A stretch of 64,000 bases of DNA, taken from Alphaproteobacteria bacterium (GTDB lineage: Bacteria > Pseudomonadota > Alphaproteobacteria > GCA-2731375). Both the position numbers and the translations under genes were made by a program. Location: NCBI GenBank assembly GCA_030752605.1, contig JASMDX010000014.1, positions 2,013 to 66,012 of the forward strand, in the 5' to 3' direction. Shown piece by piece: positions 1-42,569 of the stretch; position 1 is the first letter of the stretch; each line of letters opens with the position of its first letter. Under the pieces are notes generated by a model. The model was not told the origin of the DNA. It ran no database searches and was given only the letters and a program-made list of their open reading frames with translations.

Positions 1-327
1 CAGCCCGTAACTGGCGGACGCGGCGCGATGACGGCGATCTATTATCTGCTGCGCCGGGGCGAAACCTCCGCCTGGCATCGGGTCAATGACGCGGACGAGA
101 TCTGGCATTACTACGCTGGCGCGCCGCTGGAACTGGTGCGCGGCAAGGAACGGCTGGTGCTAGGCCCGGACCTGGCGGCGGGTGAGCGGCCCCAGGCTGT
201 CATCCCCATGAGCGAATGGCAATCGGCCCATTCCTTGGGCGCGTGGACCCTGGTGGGCTGCACGGTCGGCCCGGCCTTTGACTTCGCCGGTTTCGAGATG
301 GCGCCGGAAGGCTGGCAGCCGAACTAG
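1..327 (+). CDS. Cupin-fold protein (DUF985-like), C-terminal part; 5' end lies outside the window
   Basis: ORF 28..327 shows the motifs YYLLRRGETSAWHRV and DEIWHYYAG, typical of the DUF985 cupin family. The reading frame is open back to base 1, so the true start is upstream. Confidence 0.55.
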   Translation, partial: QPVTGGRGAMTAIYYLLRRGETSAWHRVNDADEIWHYYAGAPLELVRGKERLVLGPDLAAGERPQAVIPMSEWQSAHSLGAWTLVGCTVGPAFDFAGFEMAPEGWQPN

Positions 328-1223
328 CGCAGCTTGTTCGGACGCAAAAGGTCGATGGAAGCCAGGACCGCGCCGCCGGTGATCAACAGGCAAGCCAGCG
401 CCACCGTCCAGGTCGCCGTGGCAAAGCCAAACAGGATCAACACCAAGGTCGAGAGCAACGGCGCCGCGTATGATGAGGCACCCAGGGCCTGAATATGGCC
501 GTGTTTGACGCCATGATCCCAGCAAAAGAACGCTAGACCCACGGGACCAAGGCCCAGGCCGGCAACCGCCAGCCATTGCCTGGCGTCCGCCGGCCAGACC
601 GTACTTTCAAACATCAGATGGGCCAGCAACGCCAACAGAGCCGTGGCGCCACAAAAACCGCCCACCATATCGGTGGGCACATGGCCAAGTCGCCGGGACA
701 AAACGGAATAGCCCGACCACAGGAAGGCGCAGGCCAGGGCTGCGATATGCCCTGGCGCCAGGCGTATACCGGCACTGAAATCCTGATCGCCGCCCATCAG
801 CAAGGCCGCCCCCGCCAGGCCCGTCACGGCACCCGCCAAATGCCACCAGCGCAGCCGCTCGCCCGGCAACAGAGCGGAAAACAAAACGATTAGCAGCGGC
901 CACAGATAGGCAATCAGGCTGGCTTCCACCGCCGGCGCATTGCGCAGGGCCACGAAATAGAAAAAGTGATAGCCAAACAGGCCACCCACGCCCACGGCCC
1001 AGACTAAGGGCCGGTGACGCAGATGGCGAACAATATTCTCGCCCCGCAGCAGCCATTTCAACAATGCCAGTGCAAAGGCAATACCAAAGGTCATAGCCGC
1101 CAGTTGCAGCGGCGGCACCTGGCCCGTAGCAGCGGTGAACAGGGCCAGCAGAGCCCACATCAGGACCGCGACAAAGCCGATCGAGGTTGCCCGACGCTGC
1201 CGGGCCAGCGTGGATGCCGTCAT
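324..1223 (-). CDS. DMT superfamily (EamA-like) transporter
   Basis: 300-aa ORF with about 10 hydrophobic TM segments and a duplicated EamA-like architecture. The ATG at 1221-1223 overlaps the upstream gene's stop by 1 nt. Confidence 0.75.
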   Translation of the reverse strand: MTASTLARQRRATSIGFVAVLMWALLALFTAATGQVPPLQLAAMTFGIAFALALLKWLLRGENIVRHLRHRPLVWAVGVGGLFGYHFFYFVALRNAPAVEASLIAYLWPLLIVLFSALLPGERLRWWHLAGAVTGLAGAALLMGGDQDFSAGIRLAPGHIAALACAFLWSGYSVLSRRLGHVPTDMVGGFCGATALLALLAHLMFESTVWPADARQWLAVAGLGLGPVGLAFFCWDHGVKHGHIQALGASSYAAPLLSTLVLILFGFATATWTVALACLLITGGAVLASIDLLRPNKLR

Positions 1224-1630
1224 CAATACATTTGCTGGCCGCCGTTGATGGACATGGTCGAGCCGGTGACGAAAGTCGCGCTATCAGCGATCGGGAACAT
1301 CACGGCGCGGGCGATCTCGTCGGCATGGCCCAACCGGCCCACGGGAATTTTAGCGACAATCTTTTCCGGCACATTGTCCGGCACCGCCGCCACCATATCG
1401 GTATCCACGTAGCCCGGCGCGATGGCGTTGACGGCAAGGTTATAGCGCGCGCCTTCCTGGGCCAGGGCCTTGGCAAAGCCGTGGATGCTGGTCTCTTCGG
1501 TGAATTGCACCGCGGCCTCATCATTGCCCGCATAATTGGCCGCAACGGTGTAGCCGGCCTCCTTCAAGGCTTCGCTGATCCCCCGGCCAATACCCCGGGT
1601 ACCACCGGTAACCAATGCCGCTCTGCTCAT
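1223..1630 (-). pseudogene. phaB: Acetoacetyl-CoA reductase (PhaB, SDR family) remnant with an in-frame internal deletion of about 100 aa
   Basis: The N-terminus MSRAALVTGGTRGIGRGISEALKEAGYTVAANYAGNDEAA is the PhaB NADP-binding region. The sequence then jumps from ...FTEETSI directly to HGFAKALAQEGARYNLAVNAIAPGYVDTDMVAAVP...GSTMSINGG, the PhaB C-terminus. The central Rossmann segment with the catalytic Ser/Tyr/Lys (NNAG...YSxxK) is missing. The product is 135 aa instead of about 240. Confidence 0.7.
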
Positions 1631-1720
1631 TAGTCCGCCCTCCAACTGGTCTTGTTGCAATTATCCAGGCCATGGATATTTCACGTCATTATGTCATGCT
1701 CTGGCGCGTCCGTAGCAAGT

Positions 1721-2875
1721 TTATGGCCGCAACCCGTCAAGCCAATCAGACAATGGTTGCCACAGGCCGCTCTTGCCGCGCTGGCCCACCACCATGCCGA
1801 TATGTCCCGCCGCCGGTCTGATAACCCGCGCCTGGGGAATGGCATCCGCCAGGGCCTGAGCCGATGCGGCGGGCACAATGCGGTCGTTCTCCGGTATCGC
1901 CGCCAGTACCGGCAGGCGCAGACTGCCGGGGTCCACCGCCTGGCCATCGATCAGCCATTCGCCACGCGCCGTGCTGTTATTGCCGTACCAACCCAACAGA
2001 CAGTCACGCGCCACCGCGGTGGCCAAGGGCACGCCATCGTTGACCCAGTCTTCCAGGGCCACGAAGTGCGCCGCCTCGTCACTTTCAGGGTCCAGCGTCG
2101 CGAAGTAGCAAAACTTGCGCTGTGCCAAGCCAGGGTCCAAGGCCGCGAACAAGGCCTGTAGAACATCCACGGGCAAGGCGCCGAAAGCTTGAAGAATATT
2201 CTCCAAGCCAGGCATTAACGCTTCAATTGCGGGCCATTGCTGTCCGCCAGCCGTGAAATCCCACGGCGTTGCGAGCAGAGCCAGACCTGTCAAATTACCT
2301 TGTCGCTGCTGCCCCAGGGCCAAAGCCAGATCGCCGCCCATGCAGTAGCCCACCAAGGCCGGCTGTTGGTCTGTCCTGTCCTCGAGCACATCAAGCACAT
2401 CGCGCAATCGGCTGATATAGTCGCTCAGGGAAAATGCCAGCTCCCCATCACCCGGCGCGCCCCAGTCCACCAGAAACGGCCGGTGTCCCTGGTTCCACAG
2501 CCAGCCCAGCAAACCGCGTTCTGGTGTCAGGTCGAGCACATGGGCGCCGTTCACCAACGAGGGTACGAACAGAACCGGCCCGCCTTCTCCACCGTAATCC
2601 AACAAACGGGTCGTACCTTGGTGCCAGACTTCGCGGCCCTTGACCCAAGCCCGGCCGTCTGGCCGGGCCGCTGCTTGATAGGCCTTTACGCCGGCCAGCA
2701 TGCCGCTCAGCCGTGTTTGACACTCGGCGGCCACGGCCTGAAACAACACATTGGGTTCACTTTGTTGTAGCGCCGCCGTCAGACCCGCCGCTGTTTCCGC
2801 CAGCTCCGGCCGCCAGGGCAGCGAGCCGTTCCGCGCACTGGGCAAGGCGACGAGCGAACTCATCATGCCTGCCAT
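1721..2875 (-). CDS. phaC: Class III-type poly(3-hydroxyalkanoate) synthase PhaC-like alpha/beta-hydrolase
   Basis: The lipase box GYCMGG (G-x-C-x-G) and a PVLFVPSLVN region resemble class III PhaC. An alpha/beta-hydrolase fold is evident. The start is uncertain: Met candidates at 2875 and 2866 would overlap the upstream ORF, and a Met at 2701 would not. Confidence 0.7.
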   Translation of the reverse strand: MAGMMSSLVALPSARNGSLPWRPELAETAAGLTAALQQSEPNVLFQAVAAECQTRLSGMLAGVKAYQAAARPDGRAWVKGREVWHQGTTRLLDYGGEGGPVLFVPSLVNGAHVLDLTPERGLLGWLWNQGHRPFLVDWGAPGDGELAFSLSDYISRLRDVLDVLEDRTDQQPALVGYCMGGDLALALGQQRQGNLTGLALLATPWDFTAGGQQWPAIEALMPGLENILQAFGALPVDVLQALFAALDPGLAQRKFCYFATLDPESDEAAHFVALEDWVNDGVPLATAVARDCLLGWYGNNSTARGEWLIDGQAVDPGSLRLPVLAAIPENDRIVPAASAQALADAIPQARVIRPAAGHIGMVVGQRGKSGLWQPLSDWLDGLRP

Positions 2876-3131
2876 CGCCGTCGAGAGATGCAGGCTCAGG
2901 GGCCGGGGCCCCCAATGCGGATGCGTCTGCGGTATTTTCTGGCGCGATGTCGTCTCCATCACCTATCCGCCCCCCTATGGCCCCAGATAATGCACCGGAC
3001 AATGCCTCGGCCATGATCCTGGCGGCCTCCGCCGCCGCGCCGCCTGCCTTATCGCTTCCGCCCGCGGCAATCTGCTGCTCCCACAGATCCAGATAGTGCC
3101 GAGCCAATGCGGTCAATTCAGGCTGTTTCAT
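2757..3131 (-). CDS. Hypothetical Ala/Gly-rich protein immediately upstream of phaC (possible PhaE-like partner)
   Basis: ORF with a plausible start MKQPELTALARHYLDLWEQQ. It occupies the position where class III systems carry phaE, but it is low-complexity and only 124 aa. It overlaps the annotated phaC start in another frame. Confidence 0.25.
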   Translation of the reverse strand: MKQPELTALARHYLDLWEQQIAAGGSDKAGGAAAEAARIMAEALSGALSGAIGGRIGDGDDIAPENTADASALGAPAPEPASLDGDGRHDEFARRLAQCAERLAALAAGAGGNSGGSDGGATTK

Positions 3132-3195
3132 AAAAATATTATAGTGCCAGGGGGCGTCAACGGCCAGGGCAAGACTAGAATTGAGACAATGCCGC

Positions 3196-3224
3196 GTTGC
3201 AACAAAATTCTTGCGCACTGCAAC
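3196..3224. promoter_or_regulatory. TGC/GCA-rich palindromes (GTTGCAAC, TTGCGCA, CTGCAAC) in the phaR-phaC divergent region; candidate PhaR operator
   Basis: Seen in sequence about 100 bp upstream of the phaR ATG. PhaR proteins autoregulate by binding TGC-rich repeats. Confidence 0.3.
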
Positions 3225-3313
3225 ATACACGCGCCATATTAGGCAATCGTTTACCATTGCCGCAGAAGAACACAATCCGTGTGGGTTTGTTGGGGCGGCT
3301 CGGTGAGGCAAGC

Positions 3314-3955
3314 ATGGCTGATAAGTCGAATAGTACCGAAGACACCATAGTCATAAAAAAATACGCCAACCGGCGGCTGTATAATACGGCAACGTCCAGT
3401 TATGTGACCCTGGATACCTTATGCGCCATGGTCAAGGACGGTCAGAACTTCGTGGTCCATGATGCCAAGTCGGGCGCAGACATCACCCGCTCGGTCCTGA
3501 CGCAAATCATTTTCGAGGAAGAAAGCAAGGGGCAGAACCTGTTGCCGATCTCCTTTCTTCGGCAGTTGATCGGCTTTTATGGCGATAGCCTACAAACAAT
3601 GGTGCCAAGTTATCTGGAAAGCACCATGTCCGCCTTTGCCCACAACCAGGACCAGATCCGCCAACATCTGACCGAGAACATGGGCGGGGTCAATCCGTTT
3701 CGCCAGATGGAGGAGATGGGCCGTCAGAACATGGCGATGTTTCAACAGGCCATGGGCATGTTCACGCCGTTCGCAAGCAATGCCGCCGCCGCACCGCAAC
3801 CGGAGCAGCCGGCGGCACCGGAACCGACGGCGGAGAGAGATCGCGTCGATGACAATAGCGGTGGTGATGGTGGCGGCGGCGAGGAATTGGACCTTCTGCG
3901 CCGGCAACTAGCGCAAATGCAACAACAGCTAGATAATCTGTCAAATAAAGGCTAG
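3314..3955 (+). CDS. phaR: Polyhydroxyalkanoate synthesis repressor PhaR
   Basis: The signature IKKYANRRLYNTATSSYVTLDTLCAMVKDGQNFVVHDAKSGADITRSVLTQIIFEEE defines the PhaR N-terminal DNA-binding domain. ATG at 3314. Confidence 0.85.
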   Translation: MADKSNSTEDTIVIKKYANRRLYNTATSSYVTLDTLCAMVKDGQNFVVHDAKSGADITRSVLTQIIFEEESKGQNLLPISFLRQLIGFYGDSLQTMVPSYLESTMSAFAHNQDQIRQHLTENMGGVNPFRQMEEMGRQNMAMFQQAMGMFTPFASNAAAAPQPEQPAAPEPTAERDRVDDNSGGDGGGGEELDLLRRQLAQMQQQLDNLSNKG

Positions 3956-4602: not shown

Positions 4603-5427
4603 CTATATCCTGCCGCCATCACAGATCAGCACCTGGCCGGTGATGAAGTCAGATTCCGGCAGGCACAAAAGATAGACCGCACCGGCAGCTTCCTCGACCC
4701 GGCCGGCCCGGCCCAGCGAGATGCCTTCGTATTTTACCTTGGCCATGTCGGTGGGAAAGCCAACCTTGAATTGTCGTCCGTGCACCTCGATTTCCGCCGG
4801 CTGCCCTTTGAATTCTTGGGTCAGGCGGGTTTCGATAAAGCCAAAGGCCACGGCATTGACATTGACGCCATAGCGGCCCCATTCCTTGGACAGGGTCTTG
4901 GTCATGCCGACAACAGCCATCTTGCCGGCGGAATAGGCCACCTGGGTGGCTGAGCCGTCAACGCCGGAGACGGAGGAAATATTCACCACCTTGCGCTGCA
5001 CCAGGTTGCCATCGGCGATTTCCCGTTTGGCGGTGGAGCGAAAATGTTCACTGGCCGCGCGCAGAATCCGAAACGGCGCGGTGGCATGCACATCCAGCAT
5101 GGCCTGCCATTGTTCATCCGTGTTGCGCTGGATCGTAGTGTTCCAGATATAGCCGGCGTTGTTCACAATGATGTCCAATCCACCCAGACCATCCAGGGCG
5201 GCATCGACGATACGCTCGCCAAAATCCGGCGCCGCCACATCGCCGTTGCAGGCGATGGCGCGGCCACCCGCCGCCGTGATCAGATCAACGGTTTCCGCAG
5301 CCGGCTCGTCGTCCAGATCATTGACCACCACCGCCGCACCGGCCTTGGCCAAGCGGACTGCGATCGAACGGCCAATGCCCCGGCCCGATCCGGTGACGAT
5401 AGCAACCTTGCCCAATAGTTCGGCCAT
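4603..5427 (-). CDS. SDR family oxidoreductase
   Basis: TGSGRGIG NAD(P)-binding motif, NNAG, and a YSAGK catalytic motif. Confidence 0.8.
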   Translation of the reverse strand: MAELLGKVAIVTGSGRGIGRSIAVRLAKAGAAVVVNDLDDEPAAETVDLITAAGGRAIACNGDVAAPDFGERIVDAALDGLGGLDIIVNNAGYIWNTTIQRNTDEQWQAMLDVHATAPFRILRAASEHFRSTAKREIADGNLVQRKVVNISSVSGVDGSATQVAYSAGKMAVVGMTKTLSKEWGRYGVNVNAVAFGFIETRLTQEFKGQPAEIEVHGRQFKVGFPTDMAKVKYEGISLGRAGRVEEAAGAVYLLCLPESDFITGQVLICDGGRI

Positions 5428-7253: not shown

Positions 7254-8150
7254 ATGAGTGAGTTTGCACCGATTTACCGGGGCAGCGTGAATGCCTGGGA
7301 ATGCGATGTCATGGGGCATCTTAACCTGCAATTCTATGCCGCCAAGCTGTCCGAGGGCCTGGGCCATCTATCGCATGCCCTGGGCCTAGCCCCGGATAAG
7401 GCTGCGCAGCTGCGCAGCCGGCATGCCTTTAGCCGTTATCTGGGCGAGCTGCATGTCGGCGCCGTGCTGGATATCAGGGCCGCCGTGCTAGCGGTGGATA
7501 GCGACAGCATCGATATCCTGGCCGAGATCGTGAATGCGGAGAGCCGTAAAGTATCGGCATCGTTCGAATTGCGCTTCGACAATTTCGACCCCGTTACCCA
7601 GACGAGCATGCCCTGGTCCGACGAGGCGCACCGGCATATGACGGCGATGATCACGGAGCGTTCTGACAATCCGCGTCCGGCCACGGCTGGCGGCCCAGTA
7701 CCTGCGTATTCGGGCACCCTGACGGGGCCATTCGTCTCGTCGCGGGGTACCGTGGATTCTTGGAATTGCGATGGCCTGGGCCGGATGTCATTCCAGCTAT
7801 ATTACGGTATCGCCTCCGACGGCATCGGAACCGTCCGCCATCGCATGGGCATCACCCGCGATGTCTCCAAGCGCAATCAATGGGGTGGGGCAGCGTTGGA
7901 ATACGATGTCCGGTTTCATACCCCAATCAGTGCCGGCGACATTTACAGCCTGCGCACGGGCCTCATGGATCTTGGCGACAAGACTTTCCGCGTCGGTCAT
8001 CAATTCCACAATGACAGTAGCGGCGAACTGGCCGCTTCGTTCGATATAGTCGCCTGCATGTTCGATCTGAAAGCCCGCCGCGCCATGACCATTCCCGACG
8101 ATATCCGGGCCCAGGCCGAAACCTTGATGATTCCCTGGCCACCTGAATAG
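7254..8150 (+). CDS. Thioesterase-like protein with tandem hotdog folds
   Basis: 298-aa protein with two repeated halves of hotdog size. The context is acyl-CoA metabolism. Confidence 0.5.
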   Translation: MSEFAPIYRGSVNAWECDVMGHLNLQFYAAKLSEGLGHLSHALGLAPDKAAQLRSRHAFSRYLGELHVGAVLDIRAAVLAVDSDSIDILAEIVNAESRKVSASFELRFDNFDPVTQTSMPWSDEAHRHMTAMITERSDNPRPATAGGPVPAYSGTLTGPFVSSRGTVDSWNCDGLGRMSFQLYYGIASDGIGTVRHRMGITRDVSKRNQWGGAALEYDVRFHTPISAGDIYSLRTGLMDLGDKTFRVGHQFHNDSSGELAASFDIVACMFDLKARRAMTIPDDIRAQAETLMIPWPPE

Positions 8151-8191
8151 CAAACACGGCAACTTTTACCCAAGAAAGCGAGTTTTACGCA

Positions 8192-9367
8192 ATGATCCGA
8201 GATCCAAATTCAATAGAGGAATTCCTGAACAACATTCGAAAATGGGTCAGAGATGTCGCCATTCCCAACGAGGACAGGGTCGCCGAACTGCACGAAGTTC
8301 CCCAGGACCTGGTCGTGCAAATGCAGGAAATGGGTTATTTCGGATGGGGTGTTCCAGAGGAATTTGGCGGCTCGGACCTGACCACGGAAGAGCTTGTTCT
8401 AGCCGCCTTTGAGCTTTCTTACTGCGCCACCACGTTCCGGGCCTACGTCGGCTCCAACACAGGTATCGGCAGCGCGGCGCTGGTCGCCGATGGGACGCTC
8501 GAACAAAAGGCCAAATATCTGCCGGGGATCGCGACCGGTGAAATCATCGGCTGTTTCGCGCTGACCGAAGCGGACGCTGGCTCGGAAGCGACAGCGTTGA
8601 AGACCAAGGCGGTGCGTGATGGCGAGACATATGTCCTGAACGGAACGAAGAGCTTTATAACCAACGCGCCGATTTCCGATCTTTTCACTGTTTTTGCCAG
8701 AACCAATCCTGACGATCCAGGGCACGGCGGCATTAGTGCCTTCCTGGTGGAACGGGACACGCCAGGCCTTGATACGGGAAAGCCGTATAAAATGATGGGA
8801 CAGGCGGGCTCTCCGGTCTCTGAAGTATATTTCAGCGATTGTAGGGTGCCCGCCGAAAATCTATTGGGCGGACAGGAAAGCGTCGGTTTCAGGACCGCGA
8901 TGAAAGCGCTTAATAGACAACGGATACATTTGGCGGCCTTGAGCACCGGCCCGGCAATGCGGATGCTGGATGAAGCGGTCAATCATGCCATGAGCCGAAA
9001 GCAGTTTGGCCAGCCAATAGGTGGTTTTCAACTGGTCCAGGCGATGATCGCCGACAGCCAAACCGACATAGCTGCCGCCCGCGCCCTGATCCTCGAAACC
9101 GCCCGCAACCGTGACGAGGGAAAGGACATTGTGCTGAATGCCTCCATTTGCAAATATTTTGCGACCGAGATGTGCGGACGCGTGGCGGACCGAGCGGTGC
9201 AAATTTTTGGCGGTTCGGGCTACGTCGCCGACTATAGCAATATCGAGCGGTTCTACCGCGATGTGCGGCTGTTCCGGCTGTACGAGGGAACCAGCCAAAT
9301 TCATCAGCTCAATATCGCCAAGCAAACCCAACGGCGGTTTTCCAAGACAGGTACCGTTCGGACCTAG
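8192..9367 (+). CDS. Acyl-CoA dehydrogenase
   Basis: ACAD fold motifs: GCFALTEADAGS, the FITNA region and a C-terminal catalytic Glu region (YEGTSQI). Confidence 0.85.
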   Translation: MIRDPNSIEEFLNNIRKWVRDVAIPNEDRVAELHEVPQDLVVQMQEMGYFGWGVPEEFGGSDLTTEELVLAAFELSYCATTFRAYVGSNTGIGSAALVADGTLEQKAKYLPGIATGEIIGCFALTEADAGSEATALKTKAVRDGETYVLNGTKSFITNAPISDLFTVFARTNPDDPGHGGISAFLVERDTPGLDTGKPYKMMGQAGSPVSEVYFSDCRVPAENLLGGQESVGFRTAMKALNRQRIHLAALSTGPAMRMLDEAVNHAMSRKQFGQPIGGFQLVQAMIADSQTDIAAARALILETARNRDEGKDIVLNASICKYFATEMCGRVADRAVQIFGGSGYVADYSNIERFYRDVRLFRLYEGTSQIHQLNIAKQTQRRFSKTGTVRT

Positions 9368-9404
9368 AGTACTTTCCGAAATCAACTAGATGCAGAAATC
9401 GCCC

Positions 9405-10265
9405 CTATTCGAACTCGCGCTCTTCCCACCAGGGGAAGAAATCCGGAATATCCGTGCTCGGTTTCATGGTGTAGTTGCCAGGGCGTTTTTCCAGGAATGA
9501 CTGTACACCTTCATAGGCATCGGGCAGTTGGCCCATGGTGCGGATGCCACGGCTATCGATCTTGTGCGCTTCCATGGGGTGATCGGCGCCCAGCATCTTC
9601 CACATCATGTGCCGGCACAGGGTAACTGACACGGCGGAAGTATTCTCGGCAATCTCCCTCGCGATGGCCCGCGCCGTCGGCAACAGATCATCGGGTGCCA
9701 CCACCTGGCTGACCAGGCCGCCTTTCAAGGCTTCATCGGCAGGGAAAACCCGGCCCGACATGACCCATTCCATGGCCTGGCTAATACCTACGATGCGGGG
9801 TAAGAACCAGGAGCTGCATGCCTCCATCACCACGCCACGACGGGTGAAGACGAGGCCAAAGCGGGCCTCGGTCGAGGCAATACGGATATCCATGGGCAGT
9901 TGCATGGTGACGCCAACGCCCGCCGCCGGGCCGTTGACGGCGGCAATCAGCGGCTTTTTGGATTCGAACAGCCGCAAGCTGACCCGGCCGCCGCCATCGC
10001 GCCATTCATCAACCGGACCCTCGCCTTCGCGCTCCGCCATGTTGAAGGTGGAGGCACCGCGCGACAGATCGGCGCCGGCGCAGAAACCCCTGCCCGCGCC
10101 CGTGAAAATGATCGCGCGCACATCGTCATCGGCGTCGGCACGGTCCATGGCGTCGATAATTTCCGTGAGCATCACGCCGGTAAAAGCGTTCAGCTTGTCC
10201 GGCCGGTTCAAGGTTATGGTCAGAACGCCATCTTCTACTTCATACAGAATATCTTGATAGCTCAC
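9405..10265 (-). CDS. Enoyl-CoA hydratase/isomerase (crotonase) family protein
   Basis: Crotonase fold with the oxyanion-hole motif FTGAGRGFCAGADL. Confidence 0.85.
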   Translation of the reverse strand: MSYQDILYEVEDGVLTITLNRPDKLNAFTGVMLTEIIDAMDRADADDDVRAIIFTGAGRGFCAGADLSRGASTFNMAEREGEGPVDEWRDGGGRVSLRLFESKKPLIAAVNGPAAGVGVTMQLPMDIRIASTEARFGLVFTRRGVVMEACSSWFLPRIVGISQAMEWVMSGRVFPADEALKGGLVSQVVAPDDLLPTARAIAREIAENTSAVSVTLCRHMMWKMLGADHPMEAHKIDSRGIRTMGQLPDAYEGVQSFLEKRPGNYTMKPSTDIPDFFPWWEEREFE

Positions 10266-17219: not shown

Positions 17220-18473
17220 ATGGACCTGACACCATCGCCGGAGGCCTATGCGGTCCTTGATCAAGTCCGTCAGTTGTTCGAGCAGGACATCCTGCCGCGG
17301 AACCGGGAGATGATCCGTTCCGCCAAGCAGGATGGCGAGCTGGACCCGCCGTTTCTTGACGAGCTGCGTGCCAAGGCCAAGTCACTGAACCTGTGGAATA
17401 TGGCGCATACGGATTTGACGGAACGCCAGGCGGGCCTGTCCATGAGTAATCTGGACTACTCCATTGTCGCTGAATTGCTGGGGCGGGTTTTTTGGTCCTC
17501 GAAAGTGTTCAACTGCCAATGGCCCGACGTTCCCAACATGGTCGCCTTGCAAAGATACGCCACTGAGGAAAAAAAGGAAAAATGGCTGAAACCACTGCTG
17601 GACGGCGATTGCCAGTCCGCCTTTGCCATGACGGAACCAGGTGCCGCATCGTCAGACGCCAAGAATATTGCCGCCACCATAACGCCGGATGGCGATAATT
17701 ATATTGTCGATGGCCAGAAATGGTACATCACCGGCGGCGGCCATGAACGTTGCCGGTTCTATCTGTTTCTAGGCCTCAGCAACCCGGACGCGGCCCAGAA
17801 CAGACGCCACAGCGTCATCCTTGTTCCCCGTGAAACAACCGGCGTCACGGTCGGCGGCGCCAATGCCTTTTTCGGCTATTCGGAACCGAACGGCCCGGCA
17901 TCGGAAATCAAATTCGACCAGGTTCGGGTGCCGAAAGAGAACCTCCTTGGCGGGTTGGGCGAAGGCTTTGCCGTCTCGCAAGCCCGTCTGGCCCCTGCCC
18001 GCCTGCATCATTCCATGCGCGCCATCGGCCAGTGCGAATTGCTGATGGAGCTAATGTACGCCCGCGCCCTGGAACGCCACGCCTTTGGCCGCGCCCTTGA
18101 AGGTTACGACACGGTACAATACGCCATCGCGCATTCCAGGGTCGAAACAGAACAAATGCGCCTGCTGCTGCGCAAGGTCGCCGCACAGGTTGATATGGAG
18201 GGGGAAAAGGCCGCCTACCGTGATCTCTCTATCCTCAAGGTCGCCATCGCCCAAGGCTATTACCGCATCGCCGACCGCGCCGTGCAGGTATTCGGCGCCA
18301 TGGGAGGCTATGACGGCACCCCACTTGCGGATGCCTTCGCCTGGAGTAGGGTTTTCAGGATTGGCGACGGCCCCGACGAAGTGCATCTGCGCAGCATCTT
18401 CCGCGCCGAGCCCAAGCCGGAGTTGGCGCTGGCGGACTCGCCCTACGTGGTACCGCCGGGCGATTGGGTATAG
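17220..18473 (+). CDS. Acyl-CoA dehydrogenase family protein
   Basis: ACAD fold of 417 aa, with an FAMTEPGAASSDA motif. Confidence 0.8.
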   Translation: MDLTPSPEAYAVLDQVRQLFEQDILPRNREMIRSAKQDGELDPPFLDELRAKAKSLNLWNMAHTDLTERQAGLSMSNLDYSIVAELLGRVFWSSKVFNCQWPDVPNMVALQRYATEEKKEKWLKPLLDGDCQSAFAMTEPGAASSDAKNIAATITPDGDNYIVDGQKWYITGGGHERCRFYLFLGLSNPDAAQNRRHSVILVPRETTGVTVGGANAFFGYSEPNGPASEIKFDQVRVPKENLLGGLGEGFAVSQARLAPARLHHSMRAIGQCELLMELMYARALERHAFGRALEGYDTVQYAIAHSRVETEQMRLLLRKVAAQVDMEGEKAAYRDLSILKVAIAQGYYRIADRAVQVFGAMGGYDGTPLADAFAWSRVFRIGDGPDEVHLRSIFRAEPKPELALADSPYVVPPGDWV

Positions 18474-27091: not shown

Positions 27092-28642
27092 ATGTATCCG
27101 GGCAAATATGCGGCGCAGAACCCTGACAAACCAGCATTCATCATGGCGGATAGCGGCGAGGCCGTGACCTACCGTGAATATGAGGCGCGCTGTAACCGCC
27201 TGGCGCATCTCTTGCGAGACCAGGGCCTGGAACGACTGCATCACTATGCAGTCTTCATGGAAAATAACGTCCGTTATATGGAAAGCTGCGGTGCCGGTGA
27301 GCGCGCTGGCCATTACTACACCTGCATCAATTCTTACCTGACGGCGCAGGAGGTGGCCTATATCGTCAACAATTCCGAAAGCCAAGTGTTGATCATCTCC
27401 GAAGCCCGGCGCGAGACAGCGATGGCGGCGCTGGCTGACTGTCCCAACGTGCAGCTTTGCATTGTCGTCGATGGGCCGGGCGACGGCGACAAGATAGTTA
27501 ATCTGGACGAGGCCACAGCCAATTTTCCCGACACCCCGATCCCAGATGAATGCCTAGGCATTGCGATGCTTTATTCGTCCGGCACCACGGGACAGCCCAA
27601 GGGCATCCTGCGGCCGCTGCCCGAAAACGCCCCCGATGCGCCCATGCCGGTCTATCAGTTTCTGATGAACATGTGGCATTACCGCGAGGGCATGGTCTAC
27701 CTGATCCCGGCGCCGCTTTATCATTCGGCGCCGCACGTGGCGCTTAACTTCACCCTCCGCGTTGGCGGCACTTCCGTGATCATGGAGCGCTTCGATCCGG
27801 AGCTCTATCTCTCTCTGGTAGAAAAATACGGCGTAACCGACAGCCAACTGGTGCCGACCATGTTCTCCCGCATGCTGAAACTGCCCGAAGAGGTGCGCGA
27901 GCGCTATGACATGTCCTCGCTGGAGGTCGCGATCCACGGCGCGGCGCCCTGCCCCCCCCAGGTCAAACAACAGATGATCAACTGGTGGGGCCCAGTCGTC
28001 GAAGAATACTATGGCGCCACCGAGGCGCAGGGTCTGACAGCCTGCGACTCCGAAGAATGGCTTGCCCACCCAGGTACCGTGGGCCAGGTAAAATTCGGCG
28101 AGATACGTATTCTTGACGACGACATGAAACCCTGCCCGACAGGCACCGCCGGCACCATTTGGTTCGTCAATGCCAGCCCATTCGAATATTTCAATGATGC
28201 CGGCCGAACGGAAGAGGCCTATTCCCCAGACCGCACCATGAGCACCGTGGGCGATGTGGGCTATGTGGACGAAGAAGGCTATCTGTTTCTGACCGACCGG
28301 GCGACCTTCATGATTATCTCCGGTGGCGTCAACATCTATCCCCAGGAATGCGAGAACTTGTTGATCACCCATCCCAAGGTGATGGACGCTGCCGTTTTCG
28401 GCGTGCCCAACGAAGAAATGGGCGAAGAGGTCAAGGGCGTGATCCAGATGACGCCCGGCCAGACCGCGGGAGAAGCGCTGGAGATGGAACTGATAGAATT
28501 CTGCCGCGAGCACCTGGCGCACATGAAATGCCCGCGCAGCATTGACTTCATCGACGATATGCCGCGTCTACCCACGGGAAAACTCTATAAACGTATCCTT
28601 CGGGACCGCTACTGGAGCGACCGAAAGAGCCGTATCCTATAG
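27092..28642 (+). CDS. AMP-dependent acyl-CoA synthetase/ligase
   Basis: AMP-binding motif YSSGTTGQPKG and a C-terminal GKLYKRIL motif. Confidence 0.85.
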   Translation: MYPGKYAAQNPDKPAFIMADSGEAVTYREYEARCNRLAHLLRDQGLERLHHYAVFMENNVRYMESCGAGERAGHYYTCINSYLTAQEVAYIVNNSESQVLIISEARRETAMAALADCPNVQLCIVVDGPGDGDKIVNLDEATANFPDTPIPDECLGIAMLYSSGTTGQPKGILRPLPENAPDAPMPVYQFLMNMWHYREGMVYLIPAPLYHSAPHVALNFTLRVGGTSVIMERFDPELYLSLVEKYGVTDSQLVPTMFSRMLKLPEEVRERYDMSSLEVAIHGAAPCPPQVKQQMINWWGPVVEEYYGATEAQGLTACDSEEWLAHPGTVGQVKFGEIRILDDDMKPCPTGTAGTIWFVNASPFEYFNDAGRTEEAYSPDRTMSTVGDVGYVDEEGYLFLTDRATFMIISGGVNIYPQECENLLITHPKVMDAAVFGVPNEEMGEEVKGVIQMTPGQTAGEALEMELIEFCREHLAHMKCPRSIDFIDDMPRLPTGKLYKRILRDRYWSDRKSRIL

Positions 28643-30908: not shown

Positions 30909-35463
<4,555 letters not shown>

Positions 35464-40884: not shown

Positions 40885-41766
40885 TCAGCCCAGCCCCAAT
40901 GTTTCCCGCGCCTCGGCTGGGCTTTGCACCCTGCCGCCCAGGCTTTCCACGATGGTCACGGCGCGTTCGACAAGCTGCGCGTTGGAGGCGAAAACGCCCC
41001 GGTCCAGATACAGGTTATCTTCCAGCCCAACGCGGACATGACCGCCCAGTAACATGGCCTGCGCCACCATGGGCATCTGCATGGGCCCAAGGCCAAAGCC
41101 GGCCCAGATAGCACCGTCGGGCAGATTGTCGACCATGGCCTTCATGGTCTGGGTATTGGCCTCCGCCCCATAGGGCACACCGAGGCAAAGCTGGTATAGC
41201 GGTGGTGGATCGAGCAAGCCTTCGCTCATCATCTGTTTAACGAACCAGAGGTGGCCGAAGTCGAATATCTCTACTTCGGGCTTAACGCTCGCATCCTGGA
41301 TACCCTTGGCCATGACACGCAGCATATCAACTGTATTGGTCATGACGTAGTTGCCTTCGCCGAAATTCATTGAACCGCAATCCAGAGTACATATCTCCGG
41401 CTTCAACTCGGCCACATGTTCCAAACGGGTCTCCGCGTTGGCCATGTCGGTGGCGTTGCCCAACTGCATGGGATCTTCGGGTGGGCCGAAATAAACATCG
41501 CCGCCCATGCCCGTGGTCAGATTAAGCACCACATCCGTATCGCTGTCACGTATCCGTTCAACCAGTTCCCGGTATAGTGCGGAGTCGCGGCTGCCCTCGC
41601 CGGTTTTGGGGTCGCGCACATGCAGATGCACCACCGCCGCCCCCGCCTTTGCCGCCTCGATGGCGGAGGCCGCGATCTGTTTCGGGGTGACCGGAATATC
41701 AGGATGTTTGCCCACCGTATCGGCGGCACCGGTGACGGCGCAGGTGATAATGACATTTCGGTTCAT
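40885..41766 (-). CDS. 3-keto-5-aminohexanoate cleavage enzyme family (BKACE, DUF849)
   Basis: N-terminal [14 protein letters not shown] and the metal-ligand pattern of the BKACE family. Confidence 0.8.
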
Positions 41767-41780
41767 AACAATGATCCTTC

Positions 41781-42569
41781 TCAGTATGGCCCGCCCAGGG
41801 TTTCCGTGTGCCCATCAAGGGGGATCACCTGTCCGCTGACCTTGGCGCCGGCATCGGAGGCCAGGAACAACGTCATCGAGGCCACTTCATCAGCTGATAC
41901 AAACGTACGCAACGACGAGGTACGGTAATAGTCCTCACGGATTTGGTCTGGCGTTACCCCTCTGGCGTCCGCCTCCGCCTTGATCACCCGGTCTAGACGC
42001 TCGCCCTCCACCGAGCCGGGCGCGATGGCGTTGACGCGGATGCCAAACACGCCAGCCTCCATGGCCAGGCTCTTGGTCAGTCCCACCACGGCCCATTTCG
42101 AGGCCGCGTAGGGCGAGCGCATGGGAAAGCCAAGAATGCCGGCACTCGAGGCCATGTTGATGATACAGCCCGAACCCTGGGCCTTCATCAAAGGCAAGGC
42201 CTGGCGTGCGCACAGAAAGCCACCGTCTACATTGACGGAAAGGCAACGGCGCCATTCCGCCGCCGAGAGGTCTTCGAGATAGCCCGCCGGCCCCGCGATA
42301 CCCGCGTTGTTGACCAGAACATCGAGACCGCCCAGCTTGTCTCGCACGGTCTTGAACAGCGCAGCTACATCCGCCTCATCGGCCACGTCGGCGGCAACGG
42401 CGGTGATTTCGGGCGCTTCGGACGCCAGGGCATCCAGCGACCCCGCATCGATATCACAGACCGCGACCTTGGCGCCCTGGCGTAGGAAAGCCTCAGCCAT
42501 GGCGCGTCCAATACCACTGCCGGCAGCGGTTATCAGAACACGTTTGTCCAATAACCCGGCTGGTATCAT
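41781..42569 (-). CDS. SDR family oxidoreductase
   Basis: [14 protein letters not shown] and YAASKWAV motifs. Confidence 0.85.

What the first reader, a model, noticed from the sequence alone, without database searches (positions are those of the whole stretch)
1223..1630. phaB reduced to an in-frame remnant lacking the catalytic core
The acetoacetyl-CoA reductase gene keeps its NADP-binding N-terminus and its C-terminal 90 aa, but about 100 central residues are missing. The missing part includes NNAG and the S...YxxxK triad. The reading frame is preserved, so the junction is ...ETSI|HGF.... Full-length PhaB has a GI dipeptide at both junction points (ETGI and KAGIHGF). That is consistent with a deletion between short direct repeats. 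The neighbouring phaC and phaR are intact. The locus therefore encodes a polymerase and a regulator but no functional reductase. A second phaB elsewhere, or loss of PHB synthesis, is implied.
Basis: partly seen in the sequence, partly recalled or inferred. Interest (0 to 1): 0.6.

Follow-up and report, generated by a model that had tools for sequence, protein, structure and literature searches.

The report
Dead phaB gene remnant, internally deleted
The gene for the reductase step of bioplastic (PHB) synthesis has lost its middle third, including the active site, through an old slip between two short repeated DNA words. It is now a drifting pseudogene in a widespread marine bacterium, which is ordinary gene decay, although related lineages have killed the same gene independently.

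Summary
Window 1223-1630 (-) is a 135-aa ORF orthologous to the 240-aa acetoacetyl-CoA reductase PhaB. It lacks 105 central codons (315 bp), which carry NNAG, Ser134, Tyr147 and Lys151.

All 11 full-length relatives carry a 7-9 nt direct repeat, (C)CGGCATC(C), at both breakpoints (ETGI and KSGI). The window keeps one copy, which is the signature of a slippage or microhomology deletion.

It is not an assembly collapse. The identical protein is on 76 contigs from many sources. Diverged alleles (84-86% identical) share the junction and a derived Gly->Ser at it.

It is not a functional short enzyme. dN/dS among the short forms is 0.49-0.88, and the pooled 0.71-0.87 is indistinguishable from neutral. 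Full-length orthologues give 0.02-0.07 over the same codons (Fisher p = 4e-10). Each short form has 9-16 changes at sites that are invariant in the full-length orthologues, and one allele has lost its ATG.

phaC, phaR and the overlapping downstream eamA remain under purifying selection.

phaB was also inactivated independently in two sister subclades. One carries a 342-bp in-frame deletion and the other a stop codon plus a frameshift. The in-frame outcome needs no selection, because 74% of the >=7-nt repeats in this gene are spaced in frame.

Overall this is an ordinary pseudogene with a tidy mechanism. Interest is low to moderate.

The parts
1223..1630 (-). phaB remnant ORF: 135 codons plus the TGA stop. 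It is a pseudogene of acetoacetyl-CoA reductase.
   Evidence: The two-stretch match to TIGR01829 falls below the cut-off, and there is a 105-codon gap against 11 full-length orthologues.
1490..1630 (-). Retained N-terminal segment, codons 1-47. It covers beta1, the TGGTRGIG NADP-binding loop, alphaB, beta2 and the start of alphaC.
1483..1490 (-). Deletion junction: C AGC ATC C, the single retained copy of the (C)CGGCATC(C) direct repeat. It carries a later GGC->AGC (Gly->Ser) change that all 135-aa alleles share.
1226..1489 (-). Retained C-terminal segment, codons 48-135. It runs from alphaF, after the lost YxxxK motif, to the C-terminus.
1638..1643 (-). Shine-Dalgarno-like GGAGGG, 7 nt upstream of the ATG. 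It is conserved in the intact orthologues.
1660..1689 (-). Sigma-70-like promoter match in the phaC-phaB spacer. This is a consensus match only.
324..1223 (-). eamA-family transporter gene. Its ATG overlaps the phaB stop by 1 nt (TGATG), and it is under purifying selection.
1721..2962 (-). phaC: an intact class III-like PHA synthase of 413 aa.
3314..3955 (+). phaR: the PHA synthesis repressor, intact and transcribed divergently.

Best explanation
The ORF is a unitary pseudogene of phaB. In an ancestor of the window's lineage, after its split from the lineages of MAG loci L015 and L001, a 315-bp segment was lost. The most likely cause is replication slippage or microhomology-mediated recombination between two copies of a 7-9 nt repeat, (C)CGGCATC(C), which encodes the Gly-Ile of ETGI (codons 46-49) and of KSGI (codons 151-154). 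The loss removed strands beta3-beta5 and the whole catalytic apparatus (NNAG, Ser, Tyr, Lys), so the product cannot reduce acetoacetyl-CoA. The deletion is in frame because most short repeats in this codon-biased gene are spaced in frame, not because a short protein is needed. Since the deletion the remnant has drifted almost neutrally while staying embedded in a still-selected phaC-(phaB)-eamA transcription unit. Its promoter-like site, ribosome-binding site and stop/start overlap with eamA are still present, so it is probably still transcribed, and in most alleles translated, into a non-functional peptide. PHA synthase and PhaR are maintained by selection. Any (R)-3-hydroxyacyl-CoA supply must therefore come from another enzyme elsewhere (a second reductase, a FabG-like SDR or a PhaJ-type hydratase), or PhaC and PhaR serve a reduced role. 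Shown: the deletion, the repeats, its age and fixation, relaxed selection, and independent losses in sister clades. Inferred: the slippage mechanism, continued expression, and the metabolic consequence.
For: - Gap and lost motifs.
- Repeats at both breakpoints in all full-length orthologues, with one copy left in the window.
- All 11 species-representative relatives with the same synteny (sdr274-DUF938-phaR / phaC-phaB-eamA) have a 240-aa phaB.
- The same junction and a shared GGC->AGC change occur in diverged alleles L080, L081 and L086. Synonymous divergence among them is 0.10-0.15, so this was a single old event.
- The identical protein (P0121) is on 76 contigs, the longest 197 kb.
- dN/dS among short forms is 0.49-0.88, against 0.02-0.07 among full-length genes on the same 134 codons.
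- Pooled branch counts are N49:S23, giving omega 0.71-0.87. This is not different from neutral (p = 0.18-0.60) and differs from full-length genes at Fisher p = 3.7e-10.
- Each short form has 9-16 replacements at sites invariant in all 11 full-length orthologues, including the Gly-rich loop.
- Allele L080 has ATG->ATA at the start codon.
- Between the window and L080, the adjacent eamA has the same dS (0.117 against 0.134) but omega 0.155.
- The AlphaFold model of the short form has mean pLDDT 42.5.
- 222 of 302 direct repeats of >=7 nt in full-length phaB genes are spaced in frame.
Against: - The ORF is still open in every allele seen, and the ribosome-binding site is conserved. This could hint at selection for translation. 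However, simulation gives P = 0.35 for no stop codon arising under neutrality, and my search could only find open ORFs.
- Pooled omega is slightly below 1, so weak residual constraint cannot be excluded.
- The AlphaFold run used only 7 sequences, so its low confidence is weak evidence.
- No expression or enzyme data exist.
Confidence: 0.9

Rival explanations
1. The remnant ORF is kept open because ribosomes must translate it through to its native stop (TGATG overlap) to start translation of the downstream eamA transporter gene. On this reading the dead gene has been co-opted as a coupling leader: the peptide sequence is free to drift, but frame and stop position are selected.
For: The phaB stop overlaps the eamA ATG by 1 nt in the window and in all 9 compared relatives, intact or deleted. 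eamA is under purifying selection, omega 0.155. No frameshift or stop is seen in five diverged deleted alleles, and omega near 1 with an intact frame is what this model predicts. The ribosome-binding site is conserved.
Against: The absence of stops is unsurprising under neutrality (P = 0.35 and 0.62). The in-frame outcome is explained by the 74% in-frame bias of repeats. Allele L080 has lost the ATG. In MAG L002, phaB carries a stop and a frameshift, yet eamA is retained downstream. The search could only recover open ORFs, which is an ascertainment bias.
Confidence: 0.07
2. The 135-aa protein is a functional short SDR-derived protein. For example, it could bind NADP(H), or it could be a subunit that associates with other SDRs, with PhaC or with PhaR.
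For: It is conserved as an ORF in a widespread lineage. It retains the TGxxxGxG loop and the alphaF-alphaG-beta7 region. Two or three independent in-frame deletions remove roughly the same core.
Against: dN/dS is indistinguishable from neutral and 10-30 times that of the parent gene. Replacements hit the Gly-rich loop (G13D, G15S, T8A) and other invariant sites, including Pro insertions in helices. No confident fold is predicted. The three central strands of the Rossmann sheet are absent.
Confidence: 0.02
3. The gap is an assembly or sequencing artefact: a collapse between repeats in a metagenome assembly.
For: The window comes from an uncultured lineage known only from metagenome assemblies. 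The deletion is flanked by a repeat.
Against: The repeat is only 7-9 nt, far below assembler k-mer sizes. The identical protein is on 76 contigs from independent projects, and alleles 14-16% diverged share the junction. The pattern of accelerated protein evolution requires long real time as a broken gene.
Confidence: 0.01

Closest known systems
PhaB, NADPH-dependent acetoacetyl-CoA reductase (classical SDR; TIGR01829; solved structures 4KMS and Cupriavidus necator PhaB 3VZP/4N5M)
   Same: The remnant is orthologous by sequence and by position downstream of phaC. The intact orthologue L015 matches 4kms_A at E = 7e-79 over its whole length. The window keeps the N-terminal dinucleotide-binding loop and the C-terminal 88 residues.
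   Different: It lacks 105 residues, including NNAG and the Ser-Tyr-Lys catalytic residues. It scores half the family cut-off and evolves neutrally. It is a remnant, not a member in the functional sense.
Deletions between short direct repeats by slipped-strand mispairing or microhomology (the classical E. coli lacI deletion spectra; cited from my own knowledge, not checked in papers here)
   Same: A 7-9 nt repeat sits at both ends of the lost segment in intact relatives, and one copy is retained at the junction. A second, independent deletion in the same gene uses an 8-11 nt repeat, CAACTAYGCCG.
   Different: These are natural, fixed events inferred by comparison, not observed mutational events. 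The polymerase or recombination pathway involved is unknown.
Rhodospirillum rubrum phaC1-phaA-phaB operon with divergent phaR (PMC12983893)
   Same: The architecture is the same: phaR is divergent from a phaC-led biosynthetic operon. More distant relatives of the window (for example L014) have a thiolase gene between phaC and phaB.
   Different: In the window's marine clade phaA is absent from the locus, and phaB is followed by an overlapping eamA. In the window, phaB itself is dead. In R. rubrum, PhaB is described as the key enzyme and the PhaJ route as minor (PMC12983893).

Membership tests
Acetoacetyl-CoA reductase PhaB (TIGR01829 / classical SDR) | Whole-protein score above the curated family cut-off | tested here: not met
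   154.5 bits against a cut-off of 302.1. The match is split into two stretches.
Acetoacetyl-CoA reductase PhaB (TIGR01829 / classical SDR) | N-terminal TGxxxGxG dinucleotide-binding motif | tested here: met
   TGGTRGIG at residues 8-15. It is degraded in sister alleles: AGGARGIS, AGGTRDIG, TGGIQGIS.
Acetoacetyl-CoA reductase PhaB (TIGR01829 / classical SDR) | NNAG motif and the catalytic Ser / Tyr-x-x-x-Lys residues | tested here: not met
   All of them (L015 positions 81-84, 134, 147, 151) lie inside the 105-codon gap.
Acetoacetyl-CoA reductase PhaB (TIGR01829 / classical SDR) | Orthologous genomic position in a pha locus | tested here: met
   The phaR / phaC-phaB-eamA synteny is shared with 11 relatives that carry a full-length phaB.
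Acetoacetyl-CoA reductase PhaB (TIGR01829 / classical SDR) | NADPH-dependent reduction of acetoacetyl-CoA | not testable with these tools
   This needs an enzyme assay. Activity is predicted to be absent because the catalytic residues are missing.
Unitary pseudogene (decaying remnant) | Intact orthologues in sister lineages and a disabling lesion in this one | tested here: met
Unitary pseudogene (decaying remnant) | Relaxation of purifying selection to near neutrality after the lesion | tested here: met
   Omega is 0.49-0.88 pairwise and 0.71-0.87 pooled, not different from neutral, against 0.02-0.07 in intact genes. There are 9-16 changes per allele at invariant sites.
Unitary pseudogene (decaying remnant) | Loss of expression | not testable with these tools
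   Promoter-like and ribosome-binding signals are still present. There are no transcript or protein data.
Microhomology / slippage deletion | Direct repeat at both breakpoints in the undeleted sequence, with one copy at the junction | tested here: met
   The repeat is CCGGCAT / GGCATCC, 7-9 nt depending on the orthologue, at nucleotide positions 140 and 455, which are 315 nt apart.

The most novel reading that the evidence does not exclude
Repeated, independent killing of phaB (the window lineage, the L082/L083 lineage, L002 and possibly L084), with phaC, phaR and eamA kept under selection, could mark an adaptive rewiring in a cosmopolitan pelagic alphaproteobacterial clade. The cells would either feed PHA synthase from fatty-acid beta-oxidation intermediates instead of acetyl-CoA, or keep PhaC and PhaR for a role other than bulk carbon storage. 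The remnant ORF would be retained as a translated leader that couples eamA translation.
Probability: 0.15. Interest if true: 0.45.

Novelty: new member of a known kind. Interest (0 to 1): 0.25.

Why it matters
The main value is for annotation and metabolic inference. This 135-aa ORF is deposited in public databases as "acetoacetyl-CoA reductase" or "SDR family oxidoreductase". Pathway callers would therefore credit this widespread marine lineage with a complete phaB step that it does not have at this locus.

The locus is also a clean natural example of a microhomology deletion with a datable neutral aftermath. It shows why such deletions in codon-biased genes tend to be in frame.

The recurrent loss of phaB alongside retained phaC and phaR is a modest ecological lead about carbon storage in oxygen-minimum-zone and deep-water Rhodospirillaceae-like bacteria.

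Tried and rejected
1. A DNA pattern across the junction (AAGAGACYAGYATCCAC) was scanned against metagenome contigs to sample alleles regardless of ORF state.
2. I tested whether the persistence of the open frame needs selection. Simulation gives P = 0.35 (135-aa type) and P = 0.62 (126-aa type) for no stop arising, so it is not evidence of function. Indel expectations could not be tested, because the protein search only finds open ORFs.
3. I tested whether the in-frame outcome needs selection. This was rejected: 74% of the >=7-nt repeats in the gene are spaced in frame.
4. AlphaFold on the short forms gave pLDDT 42.5. This fits a non-folding remnant, but the alignment was shallow and I give it little weight. 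No fold search was run on so poor a model.
5. I looked for a second phaB, phaA, phaJ, phasin or depolymerase in the window. tblastn with PhaB and with a thiolase taken from L014, plus Pfam scans of 46 ORFs, found only generic SDRs about 30% identical to PhaB (4603-5427 and 41781-42569) and beta-oxidation-type enzymes.
6. I considered whether the conserved neighbouring SDR (4603-5427) replaces PhaB. It is present equally in relatives with intact phaB, so it is not a lineage-specific replacement.
7. A literature search for phaB pseudogenes returned nothing relevant.

Full report
**What is there**

Window 1223-1630 (-) is an ORF of 135 codons: ATG at 1630-1628, stop TGA at 1225-1223. A GGAGGG ribosome-binding site sits at 1643-1638. 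A sigma-70-like match lies in the 90-nt spacer after phaC.

Pfam sees only the C-terminal part of an SDR. NCBIfam's best family is acetoacetyl-CoA reductase (TIGR01829), matched in two stretches, with residues 48-134 aligned to profile positions 156-242 of 242. The score is 154.5 bits against a cut-off of 302.1.

The neighbours are:
- an EamA transporter gene (324-1223, -), whose ATG shares one base with the phaB stop (TGATG);
- a class III-like PhaC of 413 aa (1721-2962, -);
- a divergent PhaR (3314-3955, +), which scores above its family cut-off;
- further along, DUF938 and a full-length 274-aa SDR.

**Comparison with relatives**

A scan of species-representative genomes with PhaC returned marine uncultured Rhodospirillaceae/Alphaproteobacteria MAGs from Saanich Inlet, the Black Sea, the Arabian Sea and deep ocean. 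The closest share 86-87% PhaC identity (L001, L015). The order sdr274-DUF938-phaR / phaC-phaB-eamA is conserved.

All 11 usable relatives (L001, L003-L010, L012, L015) encode a 240-aa PhaB. The L015 protein matches solved acetoacetyl-CoA reductases end to end (4kms_A, E = 7e-79). Against these the window has one clean 105-codon gap. It removes L015 residues 48/49-152/153 with NNAG 81-84, Ser134, Tyr147 and Lys151, and it keeps TGGTRGIG 8-15.

**Mechanism of the lesion**

At the left breakpoint, full-length genes read ACC GGC AT(C/T) CC (T-G-I-P). At the right breakpoint they read TC(C/G) GGC ATC CA (S-G-I-H). The window reads ACC AGC ATC CAC. A 7-9 nt repeat, (C)CGGCATC(C), therefore lies at nucleotide positions 140 and 455, which are 315 nt apart, and one copy survives at window 1483-1490. 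This is the footprint of slipped-strand or microhomology-mediated deletion. That reading rests on established knowledge of such deletions, and the pathway itself is inferred.

The junction codon is AGC or AGT (Ser) where GGC (Gly) is expected. It is so in the window and in alleles L086, L080 and L081. This shared derived change shows that these alleles descend from one deletion event.

**Not an artefact**

The identical 135-aa protein (P0121) is recorded on 76 contigs from NCBI, JGI, ENA, Logan, Tara and other collections, the longest 197 kb. Alleles only 84-86% identical, from other assemblies, carry the same junction and the same downstream eamA. A 7-9 nt repeat cannot collapse a de Bruijn assembly.

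**Not a functional short enzyme**

- Over the 134 shared codons, dN/dS between short alleles is 0.49, 0.58 and 0.77 for the 135-aa type and 0.88 for the 126-aa type. Every pair of full-length orthologues gives 0.02-0.07.
- Branch-resolved counts pooled over the short alleles are 49 non-synonymous to 23 synonymous changes. This gives omega 0.71-0.87 depending on transition bias. It is not different from neutral (p = 0.18-0.60) and is very different from intact genes (Fisher p = 3.7e-10).
- Each short allele has 9-16 replacements at positions invariant across all 11 full-length orthologues (those orthologues differ by dS of 0.35-1.35). Examples in the window are L193P, L218P and H238Q. Sister alleles carry G13D, G15S and T8A in the nucleotide-binding loop.
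- Allele L080 has ATG->ATA at the start codon.
- The flanking eamA has the same synonymous divergence between the window and L080 (0.117 against 0.134) but omega 0.155. The acceleration is therefore specific to the remnant.
- An AlphaFold model built from the short forms is unconfident, with mean pLDDT 42.5. This is weak support, because the alignment is shallow.

**The rest of the locus is alive**

For phaC, the window branch has dN about 0.035 and omega about 0.13, the same as the L015 and L001 branches. phaR and the neighbouring SDR show no acceleration either. The lineage thus maintains a synthase and its regulator without the cognate reductase at this locus.

The 64-kb window holds no second phaB, no thiolase, no MaoC/PhaJ, no phasin and no depolymerase. 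It holds only generic SDRs about 30% identical to PhaB and several beta-oxidation-type enzymes. Whether a second reductase exists elsewhere in the genome could not be tested. In Rhodospirillum rubrum, whose phaC1AB/phaR locus has the same architecture, a PhaJ route through (S)-3-hydroxybutyryl-CoA exists but is minor (PMC12983893).

**Recurrent loss**

- Contigs L082 and L083 carry a 126-aa phaB at the orthologous position (phaR-phaC-phaB-eamA). Their dominant allele is seen on 27 contigs.
- Their junction is different, AANYA|AAKSGIHGF. The deletion is 342 bp between an 8-11 nt repeat, CAACTAYGCCG, which is among the longest repeats in the gene.
- This form keeps AKSG, which the window lacks, and lacks GNDEAAVQFTEET, which the window keeps. 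Neither form can derive from the other.
- On eamA and phaC trees, window+L080 nests with L015/L001, and L082+L083 is sister to L005/L006. L002, whose phaB has a TAA stop and a 1-nt frameshift (at 4.35x coverage, so with some caution), is sister to the intact L007.
- A fourth short form, L084 (130 aa, a single 573-nt contig), comes from a more distant lineage.

**Why in frame**

Two tests removed the need to invoke selection. The probability that no stop codon arose in the observed number of substitutions is 0.35 and 0.62. In addition, 222 of 302 direct repeats of at least 7 nt in the full-length genes are spaced by a multiple of three, as expected from codon bias and recurring peptide motifs. 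My protein search could also only find open ORFs.

The conserved TGATG overlap with eamA keeps a translational-coupling role for the remnant possible. L080's lost start codon and L002's stop codon and frameshift argue against it being required.

**Verdict**

It is an old, fixed, neutrally drifting pseudogene made by a microhomology deletion. This is an ordinary kind of event, with a modestly interesting pattern of repeated phaB loss in a widespread marine clade and a practical annotation consequence.

Noticed in passing
L082:60-440 and L083:2411-2791: An independent in-frame phaB deletion of 342 bp, giving a 126-aa product, at the orthologous phaC-phaB-eamA position. It lies between the 8-11 nt repeat CAACTAYGCCG, and the junction recreates a YAAAK string. 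It is also drifting (omega 0.88), and its main allele, P0131, is on 27 contigs.
   Followed up: yes
L002:4920-5070: In MAG ANT-29, phaB has an in-frame TAA (EAG*TVAANY) and a 1-nt deletion (GIP|PINL). This looks like a third independent inactivation, but contig coverage is only 4.35x, so sequencing error is not excluded.
   Followed up: partly
L084:14-406: A 130-aa phaB from a more distant lineage, with the junction GGND|AAAKSGIHGF. It is a single 573-nt contig with a different downstream gene. It may be a fourth deletion in the same region.
   Followed up: no
Proteins P0038, P0066, P0092, P0122, P0123: P0038 is a 236-aa PhaB lacking exactly GIHG at the same KSGIHGF site. P0066 is a rearranged phaB fragment with a duplicated C-terminus. 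P0092 fuses the window's first 73 residues to a different SDR C-terminus. P0122 and P0123 are mosaics of the window, L080 and L081 alleles. These are either recombination products or chimeric metagenome assemblies.
   Followed up: no
L014:7150-8600 and loci L013-L078 generally: More distant relatives have a thiolase (phaA) between phaC and phaB, which places phaB about 1.3-1.5 kb further downstream. The window's marine clade (L001-L012) lacks phaA at the locus and instead has eamA overlapping the phaB stop.
   Followed up: partly
window 2757-3311 (-): A 184-aa ORF with no Pfam hit lies in the phaR-phaC spacer and overlaps the annotated 5' end of phaC by about 200 nt in another frame. Gene callers on related contigs did not call it. 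Whether it is real, or whether the phaC start is misplaced, was not examined.
   Followed up: no
window 4603-5427 (-): A full-length 274-aa SDR that is FabG-like and below all NCBIfam cut-offs. It is conserved in synteny with the pha locus in seven relatives (L001, L003-L006, L010, L015), at 81-95% identity and omega 0.05-0.12. Its substrate is unknown. It is not specific to the lineages that lack phaB.
   Followed up: partly
window 7254-10265, 17220-18473, 27092-28642, 30909-31649, 40885-42569: Several acyl-CoA metabolism genes lie near the pha locus: a tandem hotdog thioesterase, two acyl-CoA dehydrogenases, two crotonase-type enoyl-CoA hydratases, an acyl-CoA synthetase, and a BKACE beta-keto-acid cleavage enzyme next to an SDR. 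They could supply hydroxyacyl-CoA intermediates, but no R-specific hydratase was seen.
   Followed up: no
full-length phaB genes of L001-L012 and L015: Of the direct repeats of at least 7 nt inside these genes, 74% are spaced by a multiple of 3. This general property would bias microhomology deletions in codon-biased genes toward in-frame products.
   Followed up: yes
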